A DNA stretch of 64,000 nt, taken from IMG/VR virus record IMGVR_UViG_3300027708_000013. One strand, 5' to 3'. The position numbers and the translations under genes were made by a program. Each line of letters opens with the position of its first letter. The first letter of the stretch is position 1. Source of the DNA: a virus. Lineage: Duplodnaviria > Caudoviricetes. The notes under the pieces were generated by a model. It saw only the letters and a list, made by a program, of their open reading frames with translations, ran no database searches and was not told the origin of the DNA. This document shows positions 5,145 to 45,873 of the stretch, one piece after another.

Positions 5145-5348
5145 TTATGTTTGGGTCAATGGGGTCGGGAATACAATAGTTTTTAACATTACATATTGAT
5201 CAAATAATTTAGTTAATTCATTTTCCTCACCCAGGAACCATTGACTGGCAGCTCGCATACTCAAGGCATCAAGTTCAGTTTCGGTCAACATGGGGTACTG
5301 CTCTCGAGCCAAAGTTATCCAAATTTCTCGTTTAGTATTTAGACTCAT
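5145..5348 (-). CDS. Hypothetical protein
   Basis: 67-aa ORF packed in operon. Confidence 0.55.
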   Translation of the reverse strand: MSLNTKREIWITLAREQYPMLTETELDALSMRAASQWFLGEENELTKLFDQYVMLKTIVFPTPLTQT

Positions 5349-6510
5349 GTGTGTGTTTTCTGTAATCTGTACTCATGCGTAGCCACTGTTCTCCAGATCC
5401 TTGTAATATATCAACAATACGATCAACAGTACCATCGGTCCAGGCACTGATACGGCCCATGTGTTGGCTTGGTTTGTTCAACAAAGATTGTAACTTGCTC
5501 ATAGCATCTTCCAAACTCCAAGGAACATACAAGCGGCTTGCGTCGTTGGCAAAAGTCTCAGGGAAACTTCTATATGCTGGATATAACACATTGGCACCCA
5601 AGGTATCTGCTTCACTCACAGTGTTAGACACCCAATCTTGTAAAGCACAGTTAAACAATACCCTAGTGTCGTTTAATAACGCATAGTATTCATTCTTCTC
5701 AAGGTTATCGTACACTTTGATCATGCCCTTTGCTTCAAACGCACGGATACGATCAATGGCACCTTGATCATTGCCACGCAGTTGAGAGCCACTGAAGATA
5801 GCAAACTCTACTCGAGGCAAATGAAAGTTATCGTGCCATGCTTGAATTAAATCTAAATAAAAGTGCGGCTGTTTTTCTTGATCTGTTCTGGCCGCAAAAG
5901 CCACTCGCATGGCTCTTTGATCAAACGGTGTTAATTCTCCAGGCACTCTTGCACGGACTTCATCTCGACCAAACGCCAAGCCGGAGATGTTGTAGATCGG
6001 GGCTTCCCAGCCAGCTATTTTCATGTGCATTGCCATTTCTTCGTTTGAAGCTAATACAATATCCGCAAAACTATCCACCATTTTCTCATAAAGTGCCATC
6101 CACTTTGACATACCCCAGACATGAACGAAATCGTCCGGGTCAATGCTTTGTGCAAGACAACGAACAGCGATCCTAGGACGCATGTTAGGCTCAACTTGAT
6201 TAATAATGTAAGGTAGGCTCTCGATGCCTGGTTGAAACATGTCTTCAAAGTATATAACATCTTCATTTGTGATTTCTCCTGCTTTCATTTTTGCCACAAG
6301 CATCATTAATTGACTCATACCAAAGTAAGTACGTCCGTGTGCATCCAACACCTGTCCGGTTACAATGGCTTGATCATTGCTTAATGTTTCACCAGCGACA
6401 ATTTCATAATCAATACCACGACGCCGAAATACACGTTCGTTCCAGTCTTGTAACTGTAGTGTGTATCTTGCTTTATAGGGCTCTAGGCCCATGTACCAAA
6501 GTTTTCTCAT
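5332..6510 (-). CDS. GT-B fold glycosyltransferase (candidate DNA-modifying)
   Basis: FAARTDQEKQPHF, RVLFNCALQDWVSNTVSEA..LG...LYPAYRSFPE resembles the GT-B donor-binding half; lies in the dpdA-like operon. Confidence 0.7.
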   Translation of the reverse strand: MRKLWYMGLEPYKARYTLQLQDWNERVFRRRGIDYEIVAGETLSNDQAIVTGQVLDAHGRTYFGMSQLMMLVAKMKAGEITNEDVIYFEDMFQPGIESLPYIINQVEPNMRPRIAVRCLAQSIDPDDFVHVWGMSKWMALYEKMVDSFADIVLASNEEMAMHMKIAGWEAPIYNISGLAFGRDEVRARVPGELTPFDQRAMRVAFAARTDQEKQPHFYLDLIQAWHDNFHLPRVEFAIFSGSQLRGNDQGAIDRIRAFEAKGMIKVYDNLEKNEYYALLNDTRVLFNCALQDWVSNTVSEADTLGANVLYPAYRSFPETFANDASRLYVPWSLEDAMSKLQSLLNKPSQHMGRISAWTDGTVDRIVDILQGSGEQWLRMSTDYRKHTHESKY

Positions 6511-6845
6511 CGTGCTTTCCTAAATTCTTCAACATCTTTCACTGCTTGTTGTAGTATTGTAGCATAGTTGACAGCCTGTTGTCTATTCATTATGAGACTA
6601 GATTCGTATCGGATGTAACCTCGAGTCAGCAGTGTCCAGATGTGATACCATCGAGTTCTACTCCACCAGTTGGTTTTACCTGTGGTATAGGTAGTAACAG
6701 TGACACCTGTTTCATCGGATTCGACCCAAACATCATGATCATGATCACTTTGGCCACACTCACATATGACCTTGTACATTTTGGCGTCGCCCCAGGTGTT
6801 TTTGATCAAGACTCCGGTGGCAGGAGTTTCGGGTGTTAGCGCCAT
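6507..6845 (-). CDS. Hypothetical protein
   Basis: ORF with CECG..DH motif; start MALTPE. Confidence 0.6.
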   Translation of the reverse strand: MALTPETPATGVLIKNTWGDAKMYKVICECGQSDHDHDVWVESDETGVTVTTYTTGKTNWWSRTRWYHIWTLLTRGYIRYESSLIMNRQQAVNYATILQQAVKDVEEFRKAR

Positions 6846-7105
6846 GTTCTTGGACGCCAATTTGCATCACGTGGTTTGAAATCACGTTTTTCTTTGGGAT
6901 ACGGGCTCCAATTATCTTTAGGATGTTTGCCGGCTTTCACACGTTGCATTTCGCCCCAGGGAGTTTTTTCATTGTAGAGATGATTTTCATCATACACATA
7001 ACCTTGTTTTTTACAGAACGTGAGATACTCTTCAAGATCATCAAACAGGTCGCGGACTTCGGGTCTTAAGCGAAGATATTTGTTTAACCAAGTGGGCTGG
7101 CCCAT
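6836..7105 (-). CDS. Hypothetical protein
   Basis: 89-aa ORF with AGGAG RBS upstream. Confidence 0.65.
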   Translation of the reverse strand: MGQPTWLNKYLRLRPEVRDLFDDLEEYLTFCKKQGYVYDENHLYNEKTPWGEMQRVKAGKHPKDNWSPYPKEKRDFKPRDANWRPRTWR

Positions 7106-7116
7106 ATACTACTCCT

Positions 7117-7560
7117 TTAAATTACGATTGAAAGACTTGGACGGACTACGTTGTAATTGATATGGCATCCGTTTTCACCGTCCTCGGATACCTCAATTGA
7201 TACATAACGACCAGGATATCGTTCTGCTACTTGAAGATAGAGATCGTCGGCGAGCATTTCCACACTTTTAAAGTCCAACTGTAACACATCCTTGCTGTAA
7301 AGACTTTCCAGCCAACGTTTGAATTGTATAAATTCAATGTCTCTATCATTATGCTCTACACCAATCCAGACTTGAAAATGGAATATGTGTCTGTGACTAT
7401 TGGCTAGGAAACTCACATCATACTCACCGGGAGTACACAAGTTGGGATCTGTAGCTGCAGCTGGATAGCGATGTATGCCTTCACGTTGGAACGTGACCCA
7501 AATCTGTCTTTGGGCCTGTGTCATGATTCTATCCACTGTTTCTCTCAATTCTTGATTCAT
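7117..7560 (-). CDS. QueD-like / 6-pyruvoyltetrahydropterin synthase (T-fold) protein
   Basis: EGIH...HRHIFH Zn-binding histidines, RDIEF, S.EM.A, VSEDGENG. Confidence 0.75.
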   Translation of the reverse strand: MNQELRETVDRIMTQAQRQIWVTFQREGIHRYPAAATDPNLCTPGEYDVSFLANSHRHIFHFQVWIGVEHNDRDIEFIQFKRWLESLYSKDVLQLDFKSVEMLADDLYLQVAERYPGRYVSIEVSEDGENGCHINYNVVRPSLSIVI

Positions 7561-8078
7561 TTTATTACCTCATCTTTGGTATATTGACTCCAGTCCGTAA
7601 AACACTTACGGTCCTGTAACGCATGTAAACTATGACACCAGACTCCAGGATTGGAGGCCGCAAAGTCTCTATCGTCTAGTTTAATTGTAGCATTATATCC
7701 CAGCTGTTGTATATAGGGCAATTTAACCGAAAGCATGGGAACAAAGTTGTGAAACTCTGTCAATCCACTTTCCAATAACCCTTCGGCACAGGCAACATCT
7801 ATATCCAAGGTGCACAACATACCACGGCGTAAAAATGGAGTAATCATAAGTTCCCATGCTTGCCAGGCCTCGGCATCATTCACTGCCAACAGTGGGAAAC
7901 TGTGATTGGCACCAAAATAAATATGATCAATTGGGTATGGTTGTGCATCAGCGGCAGTGATGATGGCCGATTCGCTGTGTACACCAATGACAAATAAAGT
8001 TTTTTTATTGTATGCTGGTGTGTGTTCTACTTCAGTTCCAACGAAAAAGTTCACATCTTCATGTCCAGGTCTATCCAT
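7557..8078 (-). CDS. Conserved hypothetical protein of the dpdA locus
   Basis: ATG 8078 with GGAG RBS (ORF-track start is too long); FVGTEVEHTP..KTLFV, HIYFGANHSF. Confidence 0.65.
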   Translation of the reverse strand: MDRPGHEDVNFFVGTEVEHTPAYNKKTLFVIGVHSESAIITAADAQPYPIDHIYFGANHSFPLLAVNDAEAWQAWELMITPFLRRGMLCTLDIDVACAEGLLESGLTEFHNFVPMLSVKLPYIQQLGYNATIKLDDRDFAASNPGVWCHSLHALQDRKCFTDWSQYTKDEVIK

Positions 8079-8079
8079 G

Positions 8080-9675
8080 TTATTCTCCAAATAGGTCTGG
8101 GTTGAGTAAGGGCCGTGGTTGTTCAGTTTTAACAGGTTTATCGCGAGCCAAATTGCCTTCGATGTCCACCAGTTTACCGGCCATGGTGTATGCATTTACA
8201 ACTTTATCGCCTTTGAATCCTCTGGTTCCGATGATGTCGGTCCAATACTTGCTGTATTTTTTAATAATTTCTAAACTGTCTGCTTGCGTTGGAGCAACAA
8301 ATATGCTTTCCACAATGTCTTCAAAGTAGGCATGGTCTCCGGTGCGTCCTTTGGTTCCGCTGTACTGCATCATTGCCGGATGTTCACCACTATCGAATCG
8401 TCTATTGGCTTCTTGCACTGCTGTCAAATGCATCCAAACATTGTGACCCATCAGCAACATATAACTGAAGCTGTCCCAACTAGTTCGTGCTGGCTCTTTG
8501 CCATTCTTATTAAGATCACCAGGTGCATACACACAAATATCTTTCATTTTCAGCATGTTGCTGATGGGGCTTTCATCCCAATTTTTAATTGCTGTGCCAG
8601 GATCTTTGACAGGCAAGTCAGCCAATACTCCTGTACTCCATTTACGAGTGTCTTGGGCATATTTTTTATCATCCAACACAGGAGCCATTCTATAACTCCA
8701 TTTACCGTCCTGTGGGAATACGTTTTCAAAGTACACCTGTCCGTTGGCAGTGGCCAAGAAAGGACTGGCACAATCAAAACTAATGGTAAAAGCAGGATTG
8801 ATGTGTTTTCTCACCGCACGTTGTATAACTGTAAGTAGCACTGCCCACTCTAATTTGCTAGTGCCCAAGAAGTGCATCCAATCATGTACGCCTGGTTGTA
8901 GCAAATTATCATATCGTAATGCAACAAGTCTTTTTAATACTAGTTCTACATCACACATGTTCTGACCACCCATACTCCAGCCATTAAAATGTGTGTCGGG
9001 ATACTTGACAGGATCGCAATAATCTTTCATTGTTTGATACCATTGTTCAGCATCATCGTGATTGGCACCTTGCAACACGTTCAACACTCGCATACCACCG
9101 TTGTTGATGCCTCGACGATGCTTCATGTAAAAGTCATTGTTGAATCTAGTGGCATCCACAGCTTCTTGTAGAGTGCTGATACCACATGCCAGACTGGCTT
9201 TCTTATCGTGTATCACCCAAGTTGGAATATCCAAGGTCATGCCATAATCGGCAATGCCATCCAGCCATTTAAGCACAGCTTCACGCCGAGCTTGAGCCCG
9301 GGGGCATCCACTGTTAGCCCGCCAGTCACCTTCCCATAGGCCTTTGGCAATTTGGAAACCACCTGAATCGCCCAGCATCACGGTGTTGGGATCTCTATTA
9401 CGAACCATGTCCTCACTCCAGTCCTGCTTGTTAAGATCAAGATTGGCATGACCACCCGAGTAAAGACTCCATCGATAAGGGAACAGGGCTTTCTGTGCAT
9501 CAAGCCAGTTCATCTGTTCCATATCTGTCAGGCCCTGTGGAAAACGTGCAGGATCTACATAAGGTGTTGCTGAGGTATCACGTTGTTTGCCTATGAATGT
9601 GGCATAAAACCCCGAGATGGCTGGAAGAAATACTGCATAATCTTTTTGTTTTGCTGTTAAGTTATCTTGTTCCAT
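8080..9675 (-). CDS. dpdA: tRNA-guanine-transglycosylase-fold protein, probable DNA 7-deazaguanine insertase (DpdA-like)
   Basis: TGT motifs DSGGFQ, LDIP, VLQG, GWSMGG, HFLG, SFDCASP; phage context next to a QueD-like gene. Confidence 0.75.
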   Translation of the reverse strand: MEQDNLTAKQKDYAVFLPAISGFYATFIGKQRDTSATPYVDPARFPQGLTDMEQMNWLDAQKALFPYRWSLYSGGHANLDLNKQDWSEDMVRNRDPNTVMLGDSGGFQIAKGLWEGDWRANSGCPRAQARREAVLKWLDGIADYGMTLDIPTWVIHDKKASLACGISTLQEAVDATRFNNDFYMKHRRGINNGGMRVLNVLQGANHDDAEQWYQTMKDYCDPVKYPDTHFNGWSMGGQNMCDVELVLKRLVALRYDNLLQPGVHDWMHFLGTSKLEWAVLLTVIQRAVRKHINPAFTISFDCASPFLATANGQVYFENVFPQDGKWSYRMAPVLDDKKYAQDTRKWSTGVLADLPVKDPGTAIKNWDESPISNMLKMKDICVYAPGDLNKNGKEPARTSWDSFSYMLLMGHNVWMHLTAVQEANRRFDSGEHPAMMQYSGTKGRTGDHAYFEDIVESIFVAPTQADSLEIIKKYSKYWTDIIGTRGFKGDKVVNAYTMAGKLVDIEGNLARDKPVKTEQPRPLLNPDLFGE

Positions 9676-15338: not shown

Positions 15339-15367
15339 ATTGTATATTATAAAAGTTGAAAAAGCAA
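15339..15367 (-). promoter_or_regulatory. Sigma70-type promoter TTGCTT-N17-TACAAT
   Basis: Direct read upstream of the dsbA-like gene. Confidence 0.55.
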
Positions 15368-15379
15368 AGAATATTTGCT
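15358..15379 (-). terminator. Weak intrinsic terminator-like hairpin ending the late cargo operon
   Basis: AGCAAA-TATTC-TTTGCT followed by a T run. Confidence 0.4.
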
Positions 15380-15468
15380 CGTTTTAGGGAGTTTTGGGCA
15401 CGACTCCTACTCCTCCCAGGCCAGCAGCCGGCCACACCAAAACCACAAGGGTCCTAAGGTAGGTGTTC
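15375..15468 (-). ncRNA. Putative structured non-coding RNA element
   Basis: GC-rich island in AT-rich intergenic DNA with stems ACACC/GGTGT, GGCCG/TGGCC, GGGAG/CTCCC. Confidence 0.45.
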
Positions 15469-15474
15469 TTTACG

Positions 15475-16995
15475 CTAGTAGATACTGATGGGATCCACTA
15501 TGACCAACTGTCCGTTGGCACGTCTTCTAATATTTTCAATCTGACCCAAATCCAAATTATAACCTTTGGGTCCAACTAGACCCTCAATGATCGCTTCGGT
15601 GGCATATATTAGGCCATCCAATTCTTGTTCGCTGATGCCGGAGGGTCTTGGTTTATTCATCATGAACGCATTTACCCCCAGCTGACCGCGTGCCATGGCT
15701 GTCATTAAATCCTCAATGTACTCTAGAGTAGCTTCTTCACTGGCCACATACTCCAAATACTCTGTTTCGTACACAAAATAAGTTTCTTCGCCCAGCTGAA
15801 AATCTCCTGAATTGTATATTCGTGGATAATGTGGGTTGCGTTGATTGCGTTGAAAAAACTCCACATAGTCACGCACAGCTTGTTCTCTATCACCATCACC
15901 CACACCCAGCACCTTGACTATGGTGTTTCTTGGACTTTTGAAAACTATTTGATCCCGCCCTTCACCCACGTACTTGTAGCCTTTTGAAAAGAAATAATCC
16001 TGTATTCTTTCGCTCACTTCAAGTTCATCTGCATCGTTGACTTCTTTTACTAATTCTTTTTTCTGTTGTTCCCAGATATTTTTACTTGGTTTATGTTTGT
16101 TCCAAAACCCAGCACCAGCCGCAGTTTGTGAAGGATTACGGCGTATTTTATATCCTTGATTTTTCATATAGTCATACATGGTGGCAGCAATGCCTTGACC
16201 ACGACAGCGATCATCAACTTCTAAATCTTCTGGTGTAAGATATTCGCCATCAAATGAAAACAGCACATGTCCCAGTTCTTGACCGTCGCTTCTAGCAATA
16301 ACATATATGAGTGGTTCATCATCCGGGTCAGCTATATAACCTTCAATATCATCTTGTGTTTCAATTGAAATATCTATGCCGTTGTAGTGTACAGTTTTGG
16401 CCTCTGCAACAGATTCTCTCGCAAATTCTCTGGCTCTGCCTTCTGGATCCACATGCCAAGCATAGAATCTTGTGTCGGGATATTCCTGCTTCAATTCCAT
16501 AAAACTGTTCAAGTTGGGCACAGCATCATCATACATGATGGCCTTGGTGTAACTACCTTGATCTAATAAATCACGTATGATCTTCTTTTTCTTTTCTTCT
16601 GTGGTAGCACCCTGCATGTTGCCGGCACGGTACACATGCACACGACTCATGTCAACACCGTACTTGCGGAACGTGTCTAAAAATAATTCTTTATCATCAA
16701 AGTCAGCTCTGGCCGTCACCATCACAACTCGGTTGCCTGTGGCAATATCGTGCTTGAGTTGATTCATCATGGGAATAATTGGACGCGATTTTTCAAAGAA
16801 TTCTTGTGCGTTTCTAAAGTCCGCAAAGTCAAATTCCTCGCCAGGCTGGAGTCGGTACAGTGTAAAGTCATGACTGTTTAAACTTTTAACTACAGCACCA
16901 TTGCGAATCACATGCACTTGAGTTTGCGTGTGCACCAAGGTGTCGTCTATGTCAAAGACAACTAATTTACTTGGTTGTATTTCATCAGCTCTCAC
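15475..16995 (-). CDS. Tri-domain protein: HAD phosphatase + GNAT acetyltransferase + protein-kinase-like domain
   Basis: VVFDIDDTL/YDD (HAD); LEVDDRCRGQGIA..MY (GNAT motif A); VGEGRDQIVF..VKVL, YPRIY, LDL..ENI...LVIVDP (kinase-like). Confidence 0.7.
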   Translation of the reverse strand: MRADEIQPSKLVVFDIDDTLVHTQTQVHVIRNGAVVKSLNSHDFTLYRLQPGEEFDFADFRNAQEFFEKSRPIIPMMNQLKHDIATGNRVVMVTARADFDDKELFLDTFRKYGVDMSRVHVYRAGNMQGATTEEKKKKIIRDLLDQGSYTKAIMYDDAVPNLNSFMELKQEYPDTRFYAWHVDPEGRAREFARESVAEAKTVHYNGIDISIETQDDIEGYIADPDDEPLIYVIARSDGQELGHVLFSFDGEYLTPEDLEVDDRCRGQGIAATMYDYMKNQGYKIRRNPSQTAAGAGFWNKHKPSKNIWEQQKKELVKEVNDADELEVSERIQDYFFSKGYKYVGEGRDQIVFKSPRNTIVKVLGVGDGDREQAVRDYVEFFQRNQRNPHYPRIYNSGDFQLGEETYFVYETEYLEYVASEEATLEYIEDLMTAMARGQLGVNAFMMNKPRPSGISEQELDGLIYATEAIIEGLVGPKGYNLDLGQIENIRRRANGQLVIVDPISIY

Positions 16996-17366
16996 GATTC
17001 AAAAAACTCCGGATGCTGTTCGCCAAAGTCACGCATGAGTACACCGGCTTCAGCATTGGCTTGATTTTCGGCCGCACTGCCTGTGGCTCCATCACCTGGA
17101 TCTAGTTCGTCCTGTTCTCTTTGACGTGCATGCACCAGCTCATGTGCCAGGGTACGTAACACATCAACGGGGTGTCTATCGCCCACAACTAGGTTTATTT
17201 GTTCTGTGTCTAGGTCAAATCCACCAAAGGCAGTGCCAGTGGGTTCACGAAGCAATCGAATTTTGGGAACAGATTTTAATTTTACTTGATCAACAAACCA
17301 AGGCAAGTACTGCCGAACCACTGACACAGTGTCCTGACCTTCAACCAGTATCTCAACAATTTTCAT
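16992..17366 (-). CDS. Zincin-like metallopeptidase with short Glu-ending leader
   Basis: RTLAHELVHARQ (HExxH), downstream E..ANA.AG; starts MKIVEILVE-G. Confidence 0.7.
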   Translation of the reverse strand: MKIVEILVEGQDTVSVVRQYLPWFVDQVKLKSVPKIRLLREPTGTAFGGFDLDTEQINLVVGDRHPVDVLRTLAHELVHARQREQDELDPGDGATGSAAENQANAEAGVLMRDFGEQHPEFFES

Positions 17367-18166
17367 TTTTTATGGCCTGACTTCATGTTGGCACACCATT
17401 GATACATTCGTTTACGTTCTCCCGATGCTGCTTTGGCTTTTTGTTTTAGACTGGTCACCGATCCCTTACAACTGGCACCTGCACGTTTTACACGTCCGGG
17501 ACGACTCTTGCCTCGGACCTTGCCATCGGCAAAGTTTTCTTTTACTACTTGTGCTTGTTGTGCCAATTCTGGAGTCACTGTGAATTCACTGTTGGGTGCC
17601 GAGGCCACACTATCGGTGTACTGTGCTAAATCTTGAGTGGGCACATCTATATAGGTCAATGATCCACCGTACTGTTGTAAAAACGGTAATGCTATGCCCA
17701 CTAAACTGTTGGTAAAAGTTGGATTTTGTCCCACTTCGCCGGGCCTATTGCCGCGCCACAAGCGTGTGTGGCCAGACTCAACAGGAGCCAGTTGACTTTC
17801 AATCTCCTGTGCCTGCTGTATCAAACTTTGAATACGTGGCGTGTCCATGTAACTTTGACCGTTGTAGTTTAATCCAGTGTTTTCTTTTAACTTTTGTTTC
17901 TTAATCCAATTGTCCGGAATGAGATTGTGTGCTTTGACAAAATCATCATGTAGTTTTTGACCTGTTATGTTGTGACTCCGGCAGATTCGTTGCATCATGG
18001 CATCTATGTTTTCATAGTTCATCTCGGTGCCGTTTTTCTTGGCACGTATCAGGGCCGTTTCTAATGCTGCTACTGCTCCATCCTTGGCTGTGCCCTTGGC
18101 GGATAAAGGCTCCATGGGTCCGGAGTATTTGCCTTCTATTAGATCAACGATTTCTAAGATTTTCAT
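17363..18166 (-). CDS. Modular protein with leader MKILEIVDLIE and basic C-terminal module
   Basis: Modules separated by LKE/VKE; K/R-rich Cys-containing tail. Confidence 0.7.
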   Translation of the reverse strand: MKILEIVDLIEGKYSGPMEPLSAKGTAKDGAVAALETALIRAKKNGTEMNYENIDAMMQRICRSHNITGQKLHDDFVKAHNLIPDNWIKKQKLKENTGLNYNGQSYMDTPRIQSLIQQAQEIESQLAPVESGHTRLWRGNRPGEVGQNPTFTNSLVGIALPFLQQYGGSLTYIDVPTQDLAQYTDSVASAPNSEFTVTPELAQQAQVVKENFADGKVRGKSRPGRVKRAGASCKGSVTSLKQKAKAASGERKRMYQWCANMKSGHKK

Positions 18167-18242
18167 ACAGGTGCGTAGGGATTCGTTGGTCTATCATCGT
18201 TGGGGTTTTCCTTTTCAGGATACACAGGATAAGGATAGTTCA

Positions 18243-19622
18243 TCAGCAGTTCCAACGTCGACGTGCTTTACAAATGGCCTTGTCCGGAGTCTTGGCACAC
18301 GAAATATTATGCATCTTCATTTGTCCTCGGCTTCTTGAACAGTAGCTTTTTCTACGCTTTGACGCTTTACTACCACGCTTTAGCTTTGACGGCTTGGTGG
18401 TTACAGCAGTTTTTAATTTTGAACCTGGATGTTCTCTACGATAGGCATTGACAGCTTTTTGACTCATACCTGAAGTGTGATCCCGTTTATTGACCTTTTG
18501 CCAATCTTCTGTGATGGTTTGCTGTGTAACTGCAAACACATACAGTTCGTCATCTGTTAATGATTCTAGGTCTTCCCATATCACTTCGGCATCTACACTG
18601 TTGTGATCAGCCAATCCTTCAATGATGCTTTCAACTAAATCAAACTCTTCGTCCAATTCATCATCATCTTCAGGACCTTCGGTATTCCGTATGTCATTGG
18701 AAATATCCATCATGCTTGCATCCGACATCCTGGACTGGGTCACAGCCCAATCCAACAGCTCTTGGAATTCTGTTTTGTCGGTCAGGATGGCCGGTTCCAA
18801 GGTTTTCAGCTGAGCTATCAGTTGCGGATAACTAGCCAGGGTCTTGATGGCAGTAGCTCTATCCATTTGCCAAGCCTTGATGGTCATGGCCGCACGATAG
18901 GCTGCACGACCCACTGGATCATCATCCAGCTCGCCGTCGTCCCAGTTGTGATCTTCGGGAGGTGCAAATTCCTTTAAGTTGTCTTCCGATACCCCTTGAT
19001 TTTCGTGATCGTTGATCAAATCATGTGCCTGTTGAACAAAAGGCCGATATCTATCTGTCATCTTGTAAGCAAAGTATTTCACTTTTCCATTGAGAAAAAT
19101 ATCACCTTCGAGTATGCCTCGAGCTGAATTGACCATGCAGTCACCCATTTGCTCGCCATCCTCATCGATCACATCAAAATGGTAGTTATAACTGCGTTTG
19201 CCATGGTTCTCAGCTTGTATCCCAGCCGAAACAAGAACCAATTGTGGCATATAGTCCTCGCCAGAGTCTCTGTTAGGAGAAAATTCGTTGAGTCGGTCTT
19301 CTTCAGTGACACTTTCATTGGGCACACATTTACGAACTTGTCCACCGTTCTTGCCCCGCTTGGTTCCTTCGGCATGATGATTTGGCCAGCAACGGGTAAA
19401 ACCGTTGGCGTCTTTTTGACCTTTGGCAATTTCATTGATGTTGCCGTGTGTTTCACACCGACCGCAGTCCGGGCAAGTCATTTCCATCACTTCATGACTT
19501 TCATTATGCTTGCGTTTACCAGCACAGTGAGCCCGTTGACTAAAACCTTTGGGATGACTGCAATTAATACTGTTTTTGTATTTTTGACTCCACTTTTCTG
19601 TTAGTATTTCATTGATTCTCAT
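18243..19622 (-). CDS. Modular protein (leader MRINEILTE) with several small Cys-containing basic modules
   Basis: ATG 19622 overlaps the Dps stop; modules KWSQKYKNSINC, CPDCGRC, CWPNHH..CVP, RRKSYCSRS..RRRWNC; acidic spacers. Confidence 0.7.
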   Translation of the reverse strand: MRINEILTEKWSQKYKNSINCSHPKGFSQRAHCAGKRKHNESHEVMEMTCPDCGRCETHGNINEIAKGQKDANGFTRCWPNHHAEGTKRGKNGGQVRKCVPNESVTEEDRLNEFSPNRDSGEDYMPQLVLVSAGIQAENHGKRSYNYHFDVIDEDGEQMGDCMVNSARGILEGDIFLNGKVKYFAYKMTDRYRPFVQQAHDLINDHENQGVSEDNLKEFAPPEDHNWDDGELDDDPVGRAAYRAAMTIKAWQMDRATAIKTLASYPQLIAQLKTLEPAILTDKTEFQELLDWAVTQSRMSDASMMDISNDIRNTEGPEDDDELDEEFDLVESIIEGLADHNSVDAEVIWEDLESLTDDELYVFAVTQQTITEDWQKVNKRDHTSGMSQKAVNAYRREHPGSKLKTAVTTKPSKLKRGSKASKRRKSYCSRSRGQMKMHNISCAKTPDKAICKARRRWNC

Positions 19623-20056
19623 TTTAATGTACTCCTTAACATCCATGCGTGTTTTCTAAAGGCATCCATTCTTTCAGCAAGAAAATTGCTGAAGCCGTGT
19701 TCACCTGCGGCTTCAGCTTGGTCGTAAACAATCTTTAATATTTTAAACATTTTATCTGCATCGTTCAATAGTTCCGCCACCATCTTCTCTGCCACCCACA
19801 CTGCACTTTCATCTTCAATGCGGGTCAGCATGGCGAATCTACTGTTTGACCCCGGAGCATAAGCACCCAAACTTCGTATTTTCTCAGCGAATTCATCCAC
19901 AGCACCATACACTTCGGTGTAGATGGTTTCAAATAAACTATGTAGTTCTTGAAAGTGTATACCTTCCACGTTCCAGTGGAAGTAGTGACTTTTCAAATAA
20001 AAAGTATAGTGACTGGCAAAGGCTATCTTTGCTGCTTGTGTTAGTTCATCGTTCAT
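19619..20056 (-). CDS. dps: Dps/ferritin-like DNA-protection protein
   Basis: HYFHWNVEG..F..LH..FE.IY, DEFAEKIRSLG, KHAWMLRS. Confidence 0.9.
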   Translation of the reverse strand: MNDELTQAAKIAFASHYTFYLKSHYFHWNVEGIHFQELHSLFETIYTEVYGAVDEFAEKIRSLGAYAPGSNSRFAMLTRIEDESAVWVAEKMVAELLNDADKMFKILKIVYDQAEAAGEHGFSNFLAERMDAFRKHAWMLRSTLK

Positions 20057-23000
20057 AGTATCTCGTATCCTGCTCGTTTAAGTTGTTGTAGGTAATTTTC
20101 CATGATGTCAAGTTCGTCATCGTCATCTTCTACCGGTATCAGCTGATCAAATGTGGCTGACCATCCGCGACCTTGTTTGTCACCGATCCAGCAACGACCA
20201 CGTTCTTGGTCACAGTGACTCACTGTGAATATCTCATCTGGGCGATCTGCGTACTCTGGTGTGAGTTTGACCTGCATGCCGTTGCGGAATGATTGCGAGC
20301 CTTCCTTCATTAAAGCACTACCACCATGATGCTTTTCGATATCTTGTTCTTTGCTGCTGATAGAATAATCCATAACACCGACAATCTTATCTACTGCCTG
20401 AGCAATTTCGCTTTGAACCCAGTCTGGCAAATCTTCATTGCTACCAATGGCATTGTCTAAATGGGTTATTACTCTTTTCATGGTGTGTAATTGATTTTTA
20501 ACAAAATCGCCCTCGCCTTGACTATGATTGTCAGCATCAACATTTTTTAATTGTGTATCATTGACATTGCCGTTGTATTCCGTTACACCGTGTATGGGGC
20601 TGATGCTGTCCACTGCCACTGGCATGTTGCTATCCTCAGATGCAACTCCAGTCACTGGCTTCAATGTAGCAGCCAACACTTTGAAAAGTTTGCCGGTCCA
20701 ATCTCGGATGACAACCTTTCCGCCCTCAATGCCCTGCACTGTGCAGGGTCGATTTGAAATACCCTCGTGCCGTACCTGTTTGCCCTTGGCTAACCAGCTT
20801 GGAACTGCTGATTCCGCCACACCTTGTTGGTCCAGACCATCTACGCTTTGCCACGCATGAGCAAATGCTTGATTCAGTGCTTGAGTAATTCCTGGATATT
20901 TTGATTCCCAGTTAAACTCGTCCAAACTTTTTTGATTCATAAGAATATTATAGATACCTTTAGCACCAGTATCCGCCACATCAATGATCCAGTCCGATGC
21001 TTGCCAATTCTTTGATAAGTTTTTAGCAACAAAACGAATTTGTTGAACTGCTTCCTTGGCTTCTTGATCGGCTTGTTCTTTTGAATATCCCAATTGAGAA
21101 ACATTTTCTTTTCGAGTGCGAAGAATATTGTTACGCAGTAAGGTAGCAAAACGCTGGGCCATCTGTTCTACTTTTGTTTGAACTTCTGGAGATAAAGTTC
21201 CTCTGCCTTCCGCCACACCCGGCTCGCCTGTGATGGCCTGTAACATGGCACGGGCAACCACACGATCTTTTTCTTTTTCATCTTCTGGCAATTGAGCATA
21301 GTTCTGTGTTACCAGTCGTTGACGCTGTGCCAATTTGGCTTGTAATTTTTCCGGAGCCATTGTTTTGCTATCATCAAATATCATTGGATTTTGTATAAAT
21401 GCCTGTGCAGTGACATTCCACCCTCTATGGATGGCATCACTGATCTTTTCAATGTCAGTCTCACCCGAGTCAATCATCTTTTTAGCATAAGCAGCTGATT
21501 TCAAGTTGGCCTGCCATCCAAATGTGTTACCTGGTGTGCTACGACCATAATGATAAGCCGCGTCTAGGGCCTCATCACTGATGGTGGCCAACTGTTCTAC
21601 ACTCAATGGTTTTCCAGCGGCTTCGGCCAGGCCACTGTGTACACGGGTCTTCAGTTGTTCCAGCACTTCATAGGCGGCTGTTAGATCCTGTTGTGCTTTG
21701 GCACGACCCTGATCGGTTTTCAGTATTTTTGTTTTTTTGTATAATTCACGGATTTGCGACTGCACTTTTTTGATTTCACCCATGGTGGCTGTTTCTGGAT
21801 GTTGAAACAGATCCTTGAACGCCTGTGCCAATGCGACGCCATAGACTGCTAGTCCGGATCCAATCACAACGCCAATGCCGGAGAGGTGATTGAGATTTTC
21901 GGGTTTCAAAGGACTATAGGGATTCATGGGACTAAAGGGACTCATGGGATTCAAAGGATTGGTGCTCCAAGAGCTTTCATTGGTGGTGCTGTGTGTGGAG
22001 CCTTCTGTCACACCCGGCTTTTTAGTCATGTACCGGTCAGCATCTGCGGCTCTGCACTGTGCTGGATCTAAAGGATCAAACTTTGCATTTCCAATTGTAA
22101 AATTCTTGCCGTATTTCTTATAAAGACTATTTGCAAGATTTTCTCTGGCTCGACTGGCTGTTGACAGAGAGGGAAATACTTTCCAGTAGATGTTATCGCC
22201 ACCTTGAGTTTTCCTCCACCAAACCACTTGCGGAGTATTTTCTATTGGGCCATTACGATCAACATAGCCTTCCGCCACAACTTGGAATTTACTTTGTATC
22301 TCTTGTAATGCTTGAGCCAACAGTTCGGTTGGTGCCCGGCTGAGTAATTGTGATATATCGTTATGGAACTGACGGTATAACTGACCCCAAGTTGGGCAAC
22401 TATACGCCATTGCATGAGCACGATTACTACTGCCTTCTTGATCTAGAGAGCGAACGTATTTCCAAAGTTCACGTCTAATCGTGTCACGATCGGTTGGAGC
22501 AACTAATTCTCTACGTGCATCTCTAGACAACGGAGCAGTTTCCTCCACACCCGACCGTTGTTTAACCTGCTGTCGTTGTTTTAATTTTAATTTAGTCTGT
22601 GGATCTAATGCCCATCCTGGCTTGTGCCCGGTTGGTTGACTTGTTGAAGCTTTGTGATTTTTCTCCCAAGCAGATCGCATTAGATCCCCTTCGGCCACAT
22701 CCTTCTTGTTGATGTCATCAGTGCCGTGTTCAACGCCGCCGCCAAACAGTTCATGCCAAACCATTGTAAGCACTGGTGCATAGGCTCTAGAGCCGGGCAC
22801 AGTGTTTAATATTTGGTATATGGGTGCCAACCTATTCCAATAATCGGTATAGTTTTCGCTGTAGTCCAACACCGAATGCCAACTGTCTTCTCCGTCTGCT
22901 GGATTTCCATCCTCATCTTCGTCATTACCGGCAAAGGCTCTAGGTCCTATGCGTTTCCACAGTTGCATCATCTCCTGGTATGCACCTCCATCACTGCCAT

Positions 23001-24252
23001 AGAAATGTCCACCGGGATATCCATTGGGGAACATGTCGGGAAACATGCCAACAATCTTGTCAGCTGATTGGCTTTTTTCTTGATATTGGGGGAATTGACG
23101 AATTATGTCAGCCCACTGTTTGGCTATGGTTTGAAATTTTCCACTGGATACCAGTTTACTCAACATGGTGTCAAATTTCAAATCACCAGTGACTTCACCT
23201 AAATTATCTTTGCCATGTACACGATTCAATGCACGATCAACACCTTTTTTGCGTTGCGGACCTTTTGGTCCAAAGGTTTTCTCTATCTTGCCATACATGT
23301 CGCGTTGTACGCCACCCAGCTTTTCGGCTTGTTTTTTGGTCACATCCAATAGATATTGCTCGGCTTTTTCTATTGAGGTTTCCGTTACATCTCGCACAGC
23401 AACACCGTAGCGACGCAACAGGTTCCTGCCATCACTCACTCTAAATGCACCTTTTACATAAGGTCCCACTCGCTTGATGGCTTTTTGTTCTATATGGGGT
23501 AGATGCATTTCAGCCTGTTCGGGGGTGTTGTATTCACCGTATATCACTGCTGCACCGTCCCAGGCCCATACATAATATAATCCGGGGTCAACTGGGTACT
23601 CTCTACCTTGAATGGTTTCAATTGCTTCCGCCACACCATCTTCTTTCATTTTATCCAGCTCGTGTTGTGGAATTCCTTTTTTTCTGAGATAAAAGTCTCT
23701 AGCTCGTTTACCAACCTCAGGGGTATAATTGAATAGCACACTGGCTGGGGTCAATGGTGGAGGATGTCCATGGGCTTTGATATATGCTTTACGTTCTGCT
23801 TTTTCTTCTGGACTTCTCGCATCATGACGCCCGCTTTCCTCCACACCTTTGCTCATAGTAGGACCTGTTGTAGGTAGTTCTTCAAACTCAGCGTATGCAT
23901 CAAATACATCCTTATAGCCTTGTTGCTGGGCTAGTTTGTCAAAGTAATTATATGATACTCGGTATTTCTGCATTAGTGGTTTTAATGCATCTGTTGGGTC
24001 AATGTCTGGATAGCCCTGTGTTAGTGCAGAAATAACTTCTGGCCAGCTTGGACCACCGGAGCCTTCCTCCACACCCGAGCCAACGGGACTGGCCACATTG
24101 TCTGAATCCTGTGTGGCCGCCACACCGTTCAAGCCAGCTGAGGTGAATAGATCCGTGTCTTCGGCAAACTCGTGTATGATTTCAATTCGAGATTCGCTAA
24201 CCGTGGGTTTGCTTGGTTTTTTGTTGCTGTCAAATAAGTCGTATATGTTCAT
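20053..24252 (-). CDS. 1399-aa GVxE-linked cassette polyprotein (includes RyR-like, SH3-like and helical modules)
   Basis: Eight G-V-x-E linkers plus DVAE/VVAE/GLAE/DVTE variants; YAQLPEDEKEKDRVVAR resembles the RyR repeat. Confidence 0.75.
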   Translation of the reverse strand: MNIYDLFDSNKKPSKPTVSESRIEIIHEFAEDTDLFTSAGLNGVAATQDSDNVASPVGSGVEEGSGGPSWPEVISALTQGYPDIDPTDALKPLMQKYRVSYNYFDKLAQQQGYKDVFDAYAEFEELPTTGPTMSKGVEESGRHDARSPEEKAERKAYIKAHGHPPPLTPASVLFNYTPEVGKRARDFYLRKKGIPQHELDKMKEDGVAEAIETIQGREYPVDPGLYYVWAWDGAAVIYGEYNTPEQAEMHLPHIEQKAIKRVGPYVKGAFRVSDGRNLLRRYGVAVRDVTETSIEKAEQYLLDVTKKQAEKLGGVQRDMYGKIEKTFGPKGPQRKKGVDRALNRVHGKDNLGEVTGDLKFDTMLSKLVSSGKFQTIAKQWADIIRQFPQYQEKSQSADKIVGMFPDMFPNGYPGGHFYGSDGGAYQEMMQLWKRIGPRAFAGNDEDEDGNPADGEDSWHSVLDYSENYTDYWNRLAPIYQILNTVPGSRAYAPVLTMVWHELFGGGVEHGTDDINKKDVAEGDLMRSAWEKNHKASTSQPTGHKPGWALDPQTKLKLKQRQQVKQRSGVEETAPLSRDARRELVAPTDRDTIRRELWKYVRSLDQEGSSNRAHAMAYSCPTWGQLYRQFHNDISQLLSRAPTELLAQALQEIQSKFQVVAEGYVDRNGPIENTPQVVWWRKTQGGDNIYWKVFPSLSTASRARENLANSLYKKYGKNFTIGNAKFDPLDPAQCRAADADRYMTKKPGVTEGSTHSTTNESSWSTNPLNPMSPFSPMNPYSPLKPENLNHLSGIGVVIGSGLAVYGVALAQAFKDLFQHPETATMGEIKKVQSQIRELYKKTKILKTDQGRAKAQQDLTAAYEVLEQLKTRVHSGLAEAAGKPLSVEQLATISDEALDAAYHYGRSTPGNTFGWQANLKSAAYAKKMIDSGETDIEKISDAIHRGWNVTAQAFIQNPMIFDDSKTMAPEKLQAKLAQRQRLVTQNYAQLPEDEKEKDRVVARAMLQAITGEPGVAEGRGTLSPEVQTKVEQMAQRFATLLRNNILRTRKENVSQLGYSKEQADQEAKEAVQQIRFVAKNLSKNWQASDWIIDVADTGAKGIYNILMNQKSLDEFNWESKYPGITQALNQAFAHAWQSVDGLDQQGVAESAVPSWLAKGKQVRHEGISNRPCTVQGIEGGKVVIRDWTGKLFKVLAATLKPVTGVASEDSNMPVAVDSISPIHGVTEYNGNVNDTQLKNVDADNHSQGEGDFVKNQLHTMKRVITHLDNAIGSNEDLPDWVQSEIAQAVDKIVGVMDYSISSKEQDIEKHHGGSALMKEGSQSFRNGMQVKLTPEYADRPDEIFTVSHCDQERGRCWIGDKQGRGWSATFDQLIPVEDDDDELDIMENYLQQLKRAGYEIL

Positions 24253-24941
24253 CGTGTAGTTCCTGCTGAAGGTGGTGTTGTGGCAGAGGGTGCTGGTGTT
24301 GTGCTAGTTCCAGGCTGTGCGGGTTGACCGGCAGTAGCCGAGGCAGTGCCAGCTGTGGGAGTTTGTCCCATGGACTTTTGAGCCTGTTGTACCTGTTTGT
24401 TTTTTTGTAATTCTGTTTGTTGTGTTTTATCCAACAATGCTTTGAACTGACTGGCAGTTTGTGGATTCTGTAACATGTTGCTGGCAGCCACAGCCAATGG
24501 GCCCAGCTGATTTTGTTCTTGATTGCTGAGGTCAGTGCTGGGAGCCTGATCTAATTTATCCATTACCGCAGTGAACTTGGCAGGATTCATCTGCTGAGCA
24601 GCACCCAGCTGATTTAACTTTGGTTTGATTTGATTCACTGATTTTTGTATCTGTGATTGATCTGTTTTCTGTTGAAGGGCCGCTGGATCGGGTTTTTGTG
24701 CAGTGGAGCCCGGGGCGGTTTGAGCGGCAGCTCCATATCCGCCCACGCCACCGTATTCAGTAACGTAGGAGTAATACTCCTGCATTAGCTCACGGGCAGT
24801 TTGTTTCACCTGCGGACGACTTTTTAATTCAGCTTGTAATTCTCGCAGTACACTTTCAGTGACAAGGGTTGATGGTTGATCCAACGGCGTTGCGGTGTCA
24901 GCAATGGTGTCCATACGATGGATTAATGTACGTAGATTCAT
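24249..24941 (-). CDS. Low-complexity Q/A/T/P-rich protein in the cargo operon
   Basis: Coupled ORF; LVTE/YVTE sites; disordered-looking tail. Confidence 0.7.
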   Translation of the reverse strand: MNLRTLIHRMDTIADTATPLDQPSTLVTESVLRELQAELKSRPQVKQTARELMQEYYSYVTEYGGVGGYGAAAQTAPGSTAQKPDPAALQQKTDQSQIQKSVNQIKPKLNQLGAAQQMNPAKFTAVMDKLDQAPSTDLSNQEQNQLGPLAVAASNMLQNPQTASQFKALLDKTQQTELQKNKQVQQAQKSMGQTPTAGTASATAGQPAQPGTSTTPAPSATTPPSAGTTR

Positions 24942-27670
24942 CAGCGTTTGATCATACTTTCTTTTTTCACTGACTTCTTACGAAAAGGACTGCTGGGGTT
25001 CTTGTAAGTACCACCAAACAGTGTACCGGTTCCGGGTCCTGAGCCTGGAGTGATTGCTGTGCTGATTGAACTGGAAAAAGTTTCGGCTATACGATCTAGA
25101 TCTTGATCCAGGGTGGGTAATTCTTTTGTTTTCTTAAGAGCTTGTCCGGTTAAGTTGTGTACTTTGCCTTGAGGATTTTTCTTAGGATTGGTTGGTTTCC
25201 ATGGGCCTTCGTCTCGCCAACTGGTGACATTTCCATCTTTATCTTTTGTTTCAGTTCTGTCTTCCGACACACCCGGCTTCTTGACACCCAGGTTGGCTGC
25301 TGGATTGCCGCCACCAAACATGCTGTCAAAAGCATCTTTAGATTGTTGTTTGGTGTCTGCTGTTCGTTGTTTGGCTACTGCTTTTTTACCAGTGATGCCT
25401 TTAAACATCTTGTCAAACTTTGGGTCGCCGGTGGCTTCCGCTACACCCGACTCTGGTAAATTAGGTTTGCGGTGTTGGCCAAGCTGACCTTTAATAGCGG
25501 CTTTAAGATCGCCTGAACGACGGGCTCTCTGCTGATCAGCAAATTCTTTTGTCTCTGGACTTGCACCGGGAGTATTCATTCCAGGAATATTCCCTAGATC
25601 GGTTTGACCTGGTCTAGGAAATTTATGTGCAGTGTTCATACCTGTGCGAGCCCTCAGTCTGTCTGGACTTGTTCCTAATGCTTCCGCCACACCTTCACCA
25701 AATCTATTTGTTGGGGATACATTGCGTGGATCAGAGAAGTCAGCACTAGGCTCAGGCATACTATATTCATGAACTTCGTGAACCCACTCCTCTGGAATAT
25801 CTAACTTACGAGCAATAGTTGCCGCTGGTACACCCTTTACCAGCAAGTCAATGATCTGTTGATCAATTTTACTTTGTGGGCCATTGCCTTCCGCCACACC
25901 CGACTTGCCAGCAGGAACAACTTCAATTTTACTAAATTTACTGTTTTTCATTCGTGCTTTGAATTTTTCTTCAGCGTCTTGCGGATTCAATGCTTTGATT
26001 GTGGCGCTGGAATAGCTTGTTCCAGACTGACCAAAATAGCCCTTGACATCATACACTTGTCCGGGCTGGGCATTGAAATCTGCCTGCATTTTTTTCAAAT
26101 TCATTACACTCTGCTTGCTGATTCCGCCGGGATTGCCGCGACGAGGTTTTTTAAGAGCGGCCTGATACGGAGTATGTATATCTTTTTGTGTATCAAAACC
26201 TTGTTTATCCAGGTAATGCAATACATCGTCGCTGACCTGGGTGTCGAGATCAAATAGTGCGGCAATACCAGCAGTCATTCCTTTGTGTAAAAAAGTTTCT
26301 CCTACTTCTTTGATCATTTCTCCGTCTTCTGCAGAAGCTTCATCATCCCACAATGTGCTGTACTGTTTGCTGAACTCAACAATAGCTGTACCATACTGTA
26401 GCGGGCCATTGTTACCTTCTCCGCCGGGTGCAAATTCGTTTAGTTTACCATTGGCTGACTTTGCATCTTTTTCTAATACACTTGCTGCATGTTGTAAAAA
26501 ATCAATTAAATCATATGCTGTTACAATCTCATAAGGTGTCATGGCACGGCCAAGATCAATGCTCCAGTCGTCCAACTCGTAACGACCTGAGGTTACAATT
26601 TTTGCATAACGCAAGATCCATTGACGTGCTTTTGCAAGATTTGGACTGGCCAAGTCGCGAGTACGATTTAGTACATCATACAACGTATCAATGTGTTGAC
26701 CTGGATCTGCTACTTCTTGATCAATTGCTGAAATTATATCTTCAAGGCCCAGAGACTGTGTATCCGCTTGTTTTTTACTAGTGATGTTGTTGAGCCAGGT
26801 GTCAAATTTTATATCGCCGGTTGCTTCCGCCACACCTTGCTTGCTACTCATTCTTTTCAACAAACTCACAGCATAAACCAAATGCTGGCCAAGTTCTTTT
26901 CGTTGATCTGTTCCTGGTTTAGCATTGCTATTTTTCTGTATACTCTTTGCTAAATTTTCGGCGGCAAGTGCTTGACGGGCCAAATCACCATTGGACCGAT
27001 TGCCAACGATTTGATTTAAAAATCCACGCTTGCGGTTGGCTTGATTTGCACCATCAATTAGTGCCTTAACAATTTTATCTATCTGTTCAGCTGTTGCTCT
27101 ATCACCCACTGTGACAAACTCATCGTGGCGTGTTTCCCAATCCAAGCCTTCCTCCACACCTTGTTCTTCATTCACAGCCCGGTGTTTCACATCCTTCAAG
27201 TGTGCATCAACACCCGCGGTGTTTTTTAATTTCCATTTGGCAGCGGCCTTTCGAGCAGCTTCATAGGAAGTTTTGGCTGTTACTTCGCACTGACCTTTTT
27301 TTGCGTGTACACAAACATAAGCACGTTCTGCATCACTCTCGCCCAACAATTCAGCAAACTTTTCTTCAGCTTCGGCAATGTTGAACACTGTCATGCCACT
27401 GGCATGGGGTCTTTCGCCGCTCATGACATCGTACTCCAACCATTCGACCACAGTTTTTAAATAGTCATTGGCTAGACTGATCTTTTCAGCGGCCCAAGCA
27501 TCCAGTTCGTGCCCGTCGGGTAATTTGCCCAGTAATTGATGTAGTTTGATTGCGTTGGCAGCCGAGTGATAGCACTCTTCTCTCAGCATGTGGTGTTGTT
27601 GGCTCTTATGCATTTGATGTGCGTCATCGCCAATAAATTCGTGTTCTGTGATAAAATCTTGTGGTTTCAT
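24941..27670 (-). CDS. 909-aa GVxE-linked cassette polyprotein (leader MKPQDFITE)
   Basis: Six GVxE linkers; HTH-like module (IIDLLVKGVPAATIARKLDIPEEWV); two ATGDxKFD modules. Confidence 0.75.
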   Translation of the reverse strand: MKPQDFITEHEFIGDDAHQMHKSQQHHMLREECYHSAANAIKLHQLLGKLPDGHELDAWAAEKISLANDYLKTVVEWLEYDVMSGERPHASGMTVFNIAEAEEKFAELLGESDAERAYVCVHAKKGQCEVTAKTSYEAARKAAAKWKLKNTAGVDAHLKDVKHRAVNEEQGVEEGLDWETRHDEFVTVGDRATAEQIDKIVKALIDGANQANRKRGFLNQIVGNRSNGDLARQALAAENLAKSIQKNSNAKPGTDQRKELGQHLVYAVSLLKRMSSKQGVAEATGDIKFDTWLNNITSKKQADTQSLGLEDIISAIDQEVADPGQHIDTLYDVLNRTRDLASPNLAKARQWILRYAKIVTSGRYELDDWSIDLGRAMTPYEIVTAYDLIDFLQHAASVLEKDAKSANGKLNEFAPGGEGNNGPLQYGTAIVEFSKQYSTLWDDEASAEDGEMIKEVGETFLHKGMTAGIAALFDLDTQVSDDVLHYLDKQGFDTQKDIHTPYQAALKKPRRGNPGGISKQSVMNLKKMQADFNAQPGQVYDVKGYFGQSGTSYSSATIKALNPQDAEEKFKARMKNSKFSKIEVVPAGKSGVAEGNGPQSKIDQQIIDLLVKGVPAATIARKLDIPEEWVHEVHEYSMPEPSADFSDPRNVSPTNRFGEGVAEALGTSPDRLRARTGMNTAHKFPRPGQTDLGNIPGMNTPGASPETKEFADQQRARRSGDLKAAIKGQLGQHRKPNLPESGVAEATGDPKFDKMFKGITGKKAVAKQRTADTKQQSKDAFDSMFGGGNPAANLGVKKPGVSEDRTETKDKDGNVTSWRDEGPWKPTNPKKNPQGKVHNLTGQALKKTKELPTLDQDLDRIAETFSSSISTAITPGSGPGTGTLFGGTYKNPSSPFRKKSVKKESMIKR

Positions 27671-27690
27671 GCGTTAAACTCCAGTATATT

Positions 27691-27701
27691 ATAGTATTTA
27701 G
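27691..27701 (-). promoter_or_regulatory. T4-late-like promoter CTAAATACTAT
   Basis: Matches the core of T4 TATAAATA(ctatt); heads the coupled 27670-15475 gene chain. Confidence 0.65.
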
Positions 27702-36221: not shown

Positions 36222-36240
36222 CGAAATCTCCTAAACAGTG

Positions 36241-36260
36241 TTGATAAAACTATTTATCAA
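36241..36260 (-). promoter_or_regulatory. Late-type promoter (ATAAATA) inside a perfect 8-bp inverted repeat
   Basis: TTGATAAA-4 nt-TTTATCAA upstream of the endolysin RBS. Confidence 0.55.
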
Positions 36261-37425: not shown

Positions 37426-37464
37426 ATTAGTATAAGTTTATACTTTATTTATCTGTATCAAACG

Positions 37465-45842: not shown

Positions 45843-45865
45843 GATTGACTCCTGTCTTGTAGTGA

Positions 45866-45873
45866 TATTTATA
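45866..45873 (-). promoter_or_regulatory. T4 late promoter consensus TATAAATA
   Basis: Exact octamer. Confidence 0.7.

What the first reader, a model, noticed from the sequence alone, without database searches (positions are those of the whole stretch)
15358..15470. GC-rich structured RNA candidate at the 3' end of the late cargo operon
Seen (minus strand): ACACCTACCTTAGGACCCTTGTGGTTTTGGTGT-GGCCGGCTGCTGGCC-TGGGAGGAGTAGGAGTCGTGCCCAAAACTCCC-TAAAACGAGCAAATATTCTTTGCT. It has three consecutive stems with purine-rich internal segments, a possible pseudoknot between TGCT of the middle hairpin and the 3' AGCA, and a terminator-like hairpin that overlaps the next promoter's -35. No ORF explains it. 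Inference: an ncRNA, ribozyme or riboswitch-like element at the junction between late cargo genes and DNA-replication genes.
Basis: partly seen in the sequence, partly recalled or inferred. Interest (0 to 1): 0.65.

Follow-up and report, generated by a model that had tools for sequence, protein, structure and literature searches.

The report
Phage RNA antisense to 23S rRNA
This short folded RNA at the end of a giant lake phage's late genes belongs to a large family I found no description of, whose exposed conserved bases match the complement of the bacterial ribosome's subunit-joining helix, so these phages may use an RNA to grab the host's large ribosomal subunit.

Summary
The element (15377-15470, minus strand) is a real, conserved RNA: three stems plus a pseudoknot, backed by compensatory changes in 109 distinct homologues, one copy per phage genome, no Rfam match. 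The main result: its 5' arm can pair with 23S rRNA 1907-1933 (helix 69 and flank) at 25 of 27 positions. The third loop comes in three sequence classes, all complementary to helix 70 or its 3' flank. The middle loop matches the 16S 530 loop (weaker evidence). G-U asymmetry puts the RNA on the mRNA strand, i.e. antisense to rRNA. A same-architecture RNA occurs in cultured Vibrio phages, and unrelated phages carry other antisense stretches to 23S 1920-1976. Best reading: a late antisense RNA that invades H69-H70 of free or immature 50S. Binding and outcome are untested. It is not a known ribozyme or riboswitch. The scan already noted this family on other DNA; I found no paper on it.

The parts
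15377..15470 (-). Whole structured RNA element (about 94 nt): P1 arm, P2 hairpin, P3 hairpin, A-rich linker, pseudoknot
   Evidence: CM hit 15374-15470, 87.5 bits; covariation
15434..15466 (-). P1: ACACC (15462-15466) paired with GGUGU (15434-15438), enclosing the conserved bulge CCUUAGGA and a variable inner stem
15436..15462 (-). Anti-23S arm: pairs with E. coli 23S 1907-1933 (H69 plus 3' flank) at 25 of 27 positions (21 Watson-Crick, 4 G-U); exact 13-mer at 15450-15462 = anti 1921-1933
15419..15433 (-). P2 hairpin with 7-nt loop (15423-15429); 15420-15430 is an exact 11-nt complement of 16S 517-527 (530 loop)
15387..15417 (-). P3 hairpin with purine-rich internal loop; apical loop 15398-15405 carries UCGUGC, complement of 23S 1964-1969 (other family classes: anti 1929-1937, anti 1966-1976)
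15377..15379 (-). 3' pseudoknot strand AGC, pairing with GCU at 15426-15428
15363..15379 (-).
15339..15367 (-). Sigma-70-like promoter of the next gene (-35 TTGCTT 15362-15367, 17 nt, -10 TACAAT 15339-15344), downstream of the RNA
   Evidence: read; same pattern in homologues; not reported by the consensus scanner
15475..16995 (-). Last late-operon gene (506 aa); its stop codon ends 9 nt before P1
15050..15310 (-). Downstream 86-aa gene, phrog_639 transcriptional regulator (T4 DsbA-like, from memory), followed by family B DNA polymerase
27695..27700 (-). Nearest upstream TAAATA late-promoter-like box on the minus strand; likely start of the 12-kb transcript that carries the RNA (inferred)
   Evidence: no other minus-strand TAAATA between 27695 and 11062

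Best explanation
A phage antisense RNA aimed at the host's 23S rRNA. It is transcribed late as the 3' end of a late mRNA (in some relatives from its own promoter). The conserved P1 bulge is a toehold for 23S 1923-1930; the rest of the 5' arm can then strand-invade helix 69 (up to about 25 bp here), while the P3 loop can pair with one strand of helix 70 or its 3' flank; the P2 pseudoknot scaffolds and may protect the 3' end. Such pairing is only possible on 50S that is not joined to 30S (recycled, stored or immature particles), so the most likely effect is to trap free or late pre-50S and keep it from forming 70S, diverting host ribosome material late in infection. Shown: conservation, fold, strand, single copy, complementarity. 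Inferred: expression, binding, target particle. Guessed: the outcome (about 0.3 on its own; binding to 23S rRNA about 0.7).
For: Exact antisense matches 13, 11, 9 nt; P(top-two sum) = 5.5e-4 in 20000 dinucleotide shuffles; family antisense medians 13/10/9 vs sense 9/8/7; H69 match 12-17 nt in 102 of 109. Window arm 25/27. Three different L3 sequences (48, 43, 16 members) all map to 23S 1929-1976. Transitions in the arm that keep pairing by G-U outnumber those that break it, 22 to 9. Predicted binding to 23S 1900-1985: -20.2 kcal/mol vs -6.9 +/- 3.3 for 2-nt block shuffles, 0/200; family median -18.8, opposite strand -5.4. Helix-internal G-U contexts 54 vs 14 favour the mRNA strand. Same architecture with anti-H69 arm and anti-1929-36 loop in cultured Vibrio phages; other antisense stretches to 23S 1920-1976 in unrelated phages, intergenic. 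Feasibility: a PNA against H69 inhibits E. coli growth (PMC7038079); antisense oligos block 50S assembly in vitro (10.1101/2024.05.08.593220).
Against: No expression or binding data. Per-tile statistic alone is modest: two other tiles of 2664 in this window tie with it. Most members were collected with patterns holding the anti-H69 core, so its invariance is partly built in (the dsbA-anchored set is not). Members share descent, so counts are not independent. This window's L3 match is only 6 nt. A few members break the core (L158, L172, L176, L127). Blocking 50S late would also cost the phage its own translation. H69 carries modified uridines in mature rRNA (own knowledge), which could weaken pairing.
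Confidence: 0.55

Rival explanations
1. Cis-acting 3'-UTR tether: the element holds the subunits of a ribosome that has just terminated (H69 on 50S, 530 loop on 30S) for local recycling or re-initiation, like calicivirus TURBS.
For: 78 of 101 members have a >=60-aa same-strand ORF ending within 45 nt, mostly 3-16 nt before the bulge; 86 of 109 also match 16S 517-528 by >=10 nt, chance about 2% for a random GC hairpin.
Against: No fixed geometry: all three frames, and in 16 of 78 the ORF runs into the element and stops at its own UAG. Upstream and downstream genes are unrelated between members; 63 of 109 have a promoter-like box downstream; L119 has a divergent upstream gene and Vibrio 11895-B1 has a TTGACA/TATAAT pair just before it. 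The 16S match is lost in 23 members and in Vibrio phages while the pseudoknot is kept.
Confidence: 0.15
2. Same base-pairing, but protective or guiding: the RNA shields the H69-H70 region from host defence RNases, or guides a phage protein to it.
For: Same complementarity data. Defence nucleases that cut rRNA on infection exist (abstract of 10.64898/2026.07.14.738597); MazF-type cuts in loop 70 are recalled from memory and could not be checked (searches failed).
Against: No conserved partner gene next to the RNA; no C/D boxes (5 of 109 have both motifs loosely); a 25-bp duplex on H69 would itself block subunit joining.
Confidence: 0.13
3. A new self-cleaving ribozyme or riboswitch; the rRNA matches are coincidence or relics of captured rDNA.
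For: Compact pseudoknotted fold with conserved loops; topology recalls preQ1-II (from memory); the phage has 7-deazaguanine-type genes nearby (my reading of ORFs).
Against: No Rfam hit even at E 10; no hammerhead core (0/109); L3 has three unrelated sequences that agree only in their rRNA target; promoter lies between RNA and next gene.
Confidence: 0.08
4. The functional strand is the opposite one (an rRNA mimic or decoy), or the element acts as DNA (decoy of the I-CeuI-type homing site in 23S rDNA).
For: Watson-Crick covariation is strand-symmetric; the plus strand reads as H69, 530-loop and H70 sequence, including a mirror of the 16S h18 pseudoknot.
Against: G-U contexts 54 vs 14 and lower energy in 77 vs 29 members favour the mRNA strand; wobble-keeping changes 22 vs 9; always the orientation of the upstream genes, also in cultured phages.
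Confidence: 0.06
5. Only a transcription terminator or 3'-end stabiliser.
For: Position at the end of a late operon, before a promoter; U-rich tails in some members.
Against: No terminator pattern; hairpin in 8 of 109; single copy per 355-kb genome; invariant loop bases.
Confidence: 0.03

Closest known systems
Loop-presenting antisense RNAs (CopA/CopT of R1, RNA I/RNA II of ColE1) and trans-acting bacterial sRNAs
   Same: Recognition bases displayed in loops or bulges as toeholds for strand invasion; 3'-UTR origin as in 3'-derived sRNAs (from memory).
   Different: Target is 23S rRNA, not an mRNA or primer RNA; pseudoknotted 3' end, no conserved intrinsic terminator.
TURBS of caliciviruses
   Same: Viral RNA near a stop codon with complementarity to a conserved rRNA segment (from memory; comparison suggested by note e1-5407328).
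   Different: TURBS lies upstream of a stop-start overlap and pairs with small-subunit rRNA; this lies downstream of the stop, pairs mainly with 23S and has no fixed downstream ORF.
Box C/D and H/ACA guide RNAs
   Same: 10-20-nt antisense elements to conserved, modified rRNA regions.
   Different: No box motifs; bacterial host without known guide RNP proteins (own knowledge).
preQ1-II riboswitch
   Same: 5' hairpin, then an H-type pseudoknot with a hairpin inserted in its loop (from memory).
   Different: No Rfam match, no conserved downstream gene or Shine-Dalgarno pairing, promoter lies downstream.
Phage ribosome-binding proteins such as PhiKZ014 (PMC10914614)
   Same: Jumbo-phage factor aimed at the host 50S subunit.
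   Different: Protein, early, binds the central protuberance; here an RNA with complementarity to the subunit interface.
Synthetic anti-rRNA oligomers (anti-H69 PNA, PMC7038079; 50S assembly ASOs, 10.1101/2024.05.08.593220)
   Same: Same kind of target and expected chemistry.
   Different: Artificial; this would be a natural, structured counterpart.

Membership tests
Any Rfam 15 family (ribozymes, riboswitches, phage motifs) | Covariance-model score at gathering threshold | tested here: not met
   0 hits in window; only two chance hits at E 7-9; none on cultured look-alikes apart from tRNAs
Riboswitch (cis, 5' UTR) | Lies between promoter and a conserved regulated gene | tested here: not met
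   Downstream genes vary; promoter-like box downstream in 63/109
Riboswitch (cis, 5' UTR) | Ligand binding | not testable with these tools
   needs in-line probing
Self-cleaving ribozyme | Known catalytic core (hammerhead, HDV, twister, pistol, hatchet) | tested here: not met
   hammerhead core 0/109
Self-cleaving ribozyme | Self-cleavage in vitro | not testable with these tools
   needs in vitro transcription
Intrinsic terminator | Conserved GC hairpin followed by U run | tested here: not met
Antisense RNA acting through exposed loops | Conserved unpaired bases complementary to a target, on the transcribed strand | tested here: met
Antisense RNA acting through exposed loops | Binding to the target in vivo with a regulatory effect | not testable with these tools
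   only thermodynamic prediction
Box C/D guide RNA | C and D boxes flanking the guide | tested here: not met
   both motifs loosely present in 5/109
TURBS | Fixed position relative to a stop-start overlap with a dependent downstream ORF | tested here: not met
   variable frame and distance, element downstream of the stop
Type III antitoxin (ToxI-like) | Tandem pseudoknot repeats beside a toxin gene | tested here: not met
   single copy per genome, no constant neighbour

The most novel reading that the evidence does not exclude
Many unrelated phages have convergently evolved natural antisense RNAs against the subunit-interface core of the ribosome; this family is a multivalent one that can engage 23S H69 and H70 and, in the freshwater clade, also the 16S 530 loop, and thereby controls which host ribosomal subunits are joined, matured or degraded during infection.
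Probability: 0.3. Interest if true: 0.95.

Novelty: categorically new. Interest (0 to 1): 0.8.

Why it matters
Bacterial and phage sRNAs are known to pair with mRNAs; apart from the Shine-Dalgarno pairing I know of no natural bacterial or phage RNA that works by pairing with rRNA, and ten literature searches found none. If binding is confirmed this is a new route of translation takeover, acting on a universally conserved, antibiotic-relevant bridge (H69), and a natural template for anti-ribosome antisense agents. It is directly testable: the target is identical in E. coli, and look-alikes exist in cultured phages of Vibrio natriegens.

Tried and rejected
Rfam at gathering and E 10: nothing. 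tRNA/tmRNA: none. Folding z-score uninformative. blastn of the element against cultured phages: only chance hits. Nearest cultured polymerase relatives (Phosso, Atu_ph07, 121Q, Vibrio 2.275.O) have no convincing hit. Prokaryote genomes: one true hit among 91 pattern matches, on a misbinned phage contig; this was one narrow pattern, not a full survey. Stop-codon readthrough or recoding rejected: no frame preference. tRNA-elbow/T-loop mimicry considered and dropped: the L3 classes lack the T-loop A. The 9-nt match to 16S 337-345 is not conserved outside the window's subgroup and is treated as chance. Targets in the phage's own mRNA: one 12-nt match in the variable stem only. Literature: 10 searches, no description; Fremin 2023 (PMC10690425) lists thousands of unnamed viral candidates whose supplements are not held, so the motif may be listed there without a function. 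Papers on MazF cleavage of loop 70 and on late folding of H68-71 could not be fetched. No whole genome is held for this window. Vibrio look-alikes score only E 0.08-1.2 with my model and show no two-sided covariation among six sequences, so their homology rests on architecture.

Full report
Context. The window is part of a large phage whose DNA polymerase is closest to those of Sinorhizobium phage Phosso, Atu_ph07 and Rak2/121Q-like jumbo phages (42-50% identity). The element fills the 164-nt gap between the stop of a 506-aa gene (15475) and an 86-aa regulator gene (15310). TAAATA boxes sit just before many late genes, and none lies on the minus strand between 27695 and 11062, so the element is probably the 3' end of a 12-kb late transcript (inference). 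A sigma-70-like promoter for the next gene lies downstream of it.

Is it real? Folding energy alone says nothing (z 0.01) and Rfam has no match. Three of five contigs lacking it next to that gene have it 5-8 kb upstream. Five long contigs, two of them near-complete 355-kb genomes, hold one copy each. I worked with 109 distinct sequences. P1, P2, P3 and a pseudoknot are supported: 90% of cells paired, covariation 0.444 vs 0.157; 17 of 18 pairs change on both sides in the MAFFT alignment. The pseudoknot uses the first GCU of the P2 loop, as shown by several independent co-changes. The terminator-like hairpin is present in only 8 of 109. Helix-internal G-U pairs favour the mRNA strand 54 to 14.

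What the conserved loops are. Against E. coli rRNA the window element has exact antisense matches of 13 nt to 23S 1921-1933 and 11 nt to 16S 517-527; the sum is reached by 5.5e-4 of shuffles, although two other tiles of 2664 in the window tie with it. Allowing G-U, the 5' arm pairs with 23S 1907-1933 at 25 of 27 positions. In the family the exact H69-side match is 12-17 nt in 102 of 109, extending to either side in different members. The P3 loop has three unrelated sequences (48, 43 and 16 members), complementary to 23S 1929-1937, 1964-1969 and 1966-1976, i.e. both strands of helix 70 and its flank (helix names from my own knowledge). This window has the 6-nt class. Changes in the arm that keep pairing through G-U outnumber those that break it 22 to 9. 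Predicted binding to 23S 1900-1985 is -20 kcal/mol against -7 for shuffles; the opposite strand gives -5. The target stretch is 94-100% identical from enterobacteria to Firmicutes. The 16S match is secondary: present in 86 of 109, chance about 2% per hairpin, but lost in others while the pseudoknot is kept.

Beyond this clade. Searching cultured phages with antisense 23S 1901-1981 returned, besides rRNA contaminants, almost only intergenic hits. Vibrio phages PWH3a-P1, qdvp001, R16F, VnaP, 11895-B1 and VmeM-32 have the same order of parts: anti-H69 arm, hairpin whose loop pairs with the 3' tail, and a loop antisense to 1929-1936; model scores are borderline. Jilinviruses, Guernseyvirinae and a Sextaecvirus carry differently folded stretches antisense to 1943-1958 or 1927-1955, on the strand of the upstream protein genes, and IMG/VR holds 15 more intergenic cases, some 30-45 nt long. 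The nearest cultured polymerase relatives lack the element, and no bacterial chromosome hit was found.

How it most likely works. The bulge is a toehold, the arm invades H69 and the P3 loop reaches H70; this needs a 50S that is not joined to 30S or not yet mature. Synthetic precedents show such pairing inhibits growth (PMC7038079) and 50S assembly (10.1101/2024.05.08.593220). I therefore favour trapping of free or immature 50S late in infection (0.55 for the overall reading; binding about 0.7, this outcome about 0.3). A cis tether after termination is the main rival: the RNA nearly always starts just behind a stop codon, but frame and distance vary, 16 of 78 ORFs end inside it, neighbours are unrelated, and some members appear to have their own promoter. 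Shield or guide, new ribozyme, opposite-strand mimic and plain terminator rank lower.

Novelty. Not in Rfam, and ten full-text searches found no description; the unnamed candidates of PMC10690425 could not be checked. I reached the rRNA reading (note) before consulting the scan's notes, which turned out to hold at least seven reports of this family on other genomes; they are AI notes and not independent support. What this report adds is the corrected pseudoknot, the 25/27 arm, the three retargeted loop classes, the 16S match and cultured phages in which to test it. All functional claims remain untested.

Noticed in passing
L410:1518-1560, L411:1518-1560, L414:1501-1540, L415:1501-1540: Jilinvirus and Guernseyvirinae phages of enterobacteria carry an intergenic 16-17-nt exact complement of 23S 1943-1958 in a hairpin, followed by a Shine-Dalgarno-like stretch and a terminator; a separate family testable in E. 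coli.
   Followed up: partly
L427:10200-10260, L495:500-570, L475:10390-10460, L432:440-500, L412:1499-1530: Unrelated phages with 30-45-nt, nearly linear antisense stretches to 23S 1921-1976 in intergenic DNA.
   Followed up: partly
L118:2836-2936: The closest relative (99% identical neighbour protein) has the same P2/P3 but a different P1 arm, suggesting recombination within the element at the cargo-block boundary.
   Followed up: no
L335 (contig CAZHPL010000057.1): Contig binned as Lishizhenia MAG is phage DNA (regulator gene, Dps, cargo genes); misbinning or a host hint.
   Followed up: partly
window 27670-27700, 36221-36256, 37425-37451, 45842-45871; homologous loci: TAAATA boxes lie very close to late start codons, in many relatives only 5-8 nt before ATG, suggesting near-leaderless late mRNAs.
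   Followed up: no
L001:7002-7090, L023, L052, L092, L138 just upstream of the RNA: A recurrent tiny ORF (about 25-30 codons, ending P-x-S-P-V) precedes the RNA in many relatives.
   Followed up: no
window 5332-9675: Genes that look like a 7-deazaguanine DNA-modification cluster with glycosyltransferase (my reading of the ORFs, not searched).
   Followed up: no
window 15475-27670: Late cargo array of modular proteins with Dps; subject of another finding (e1-5380179).
   Followed up: no
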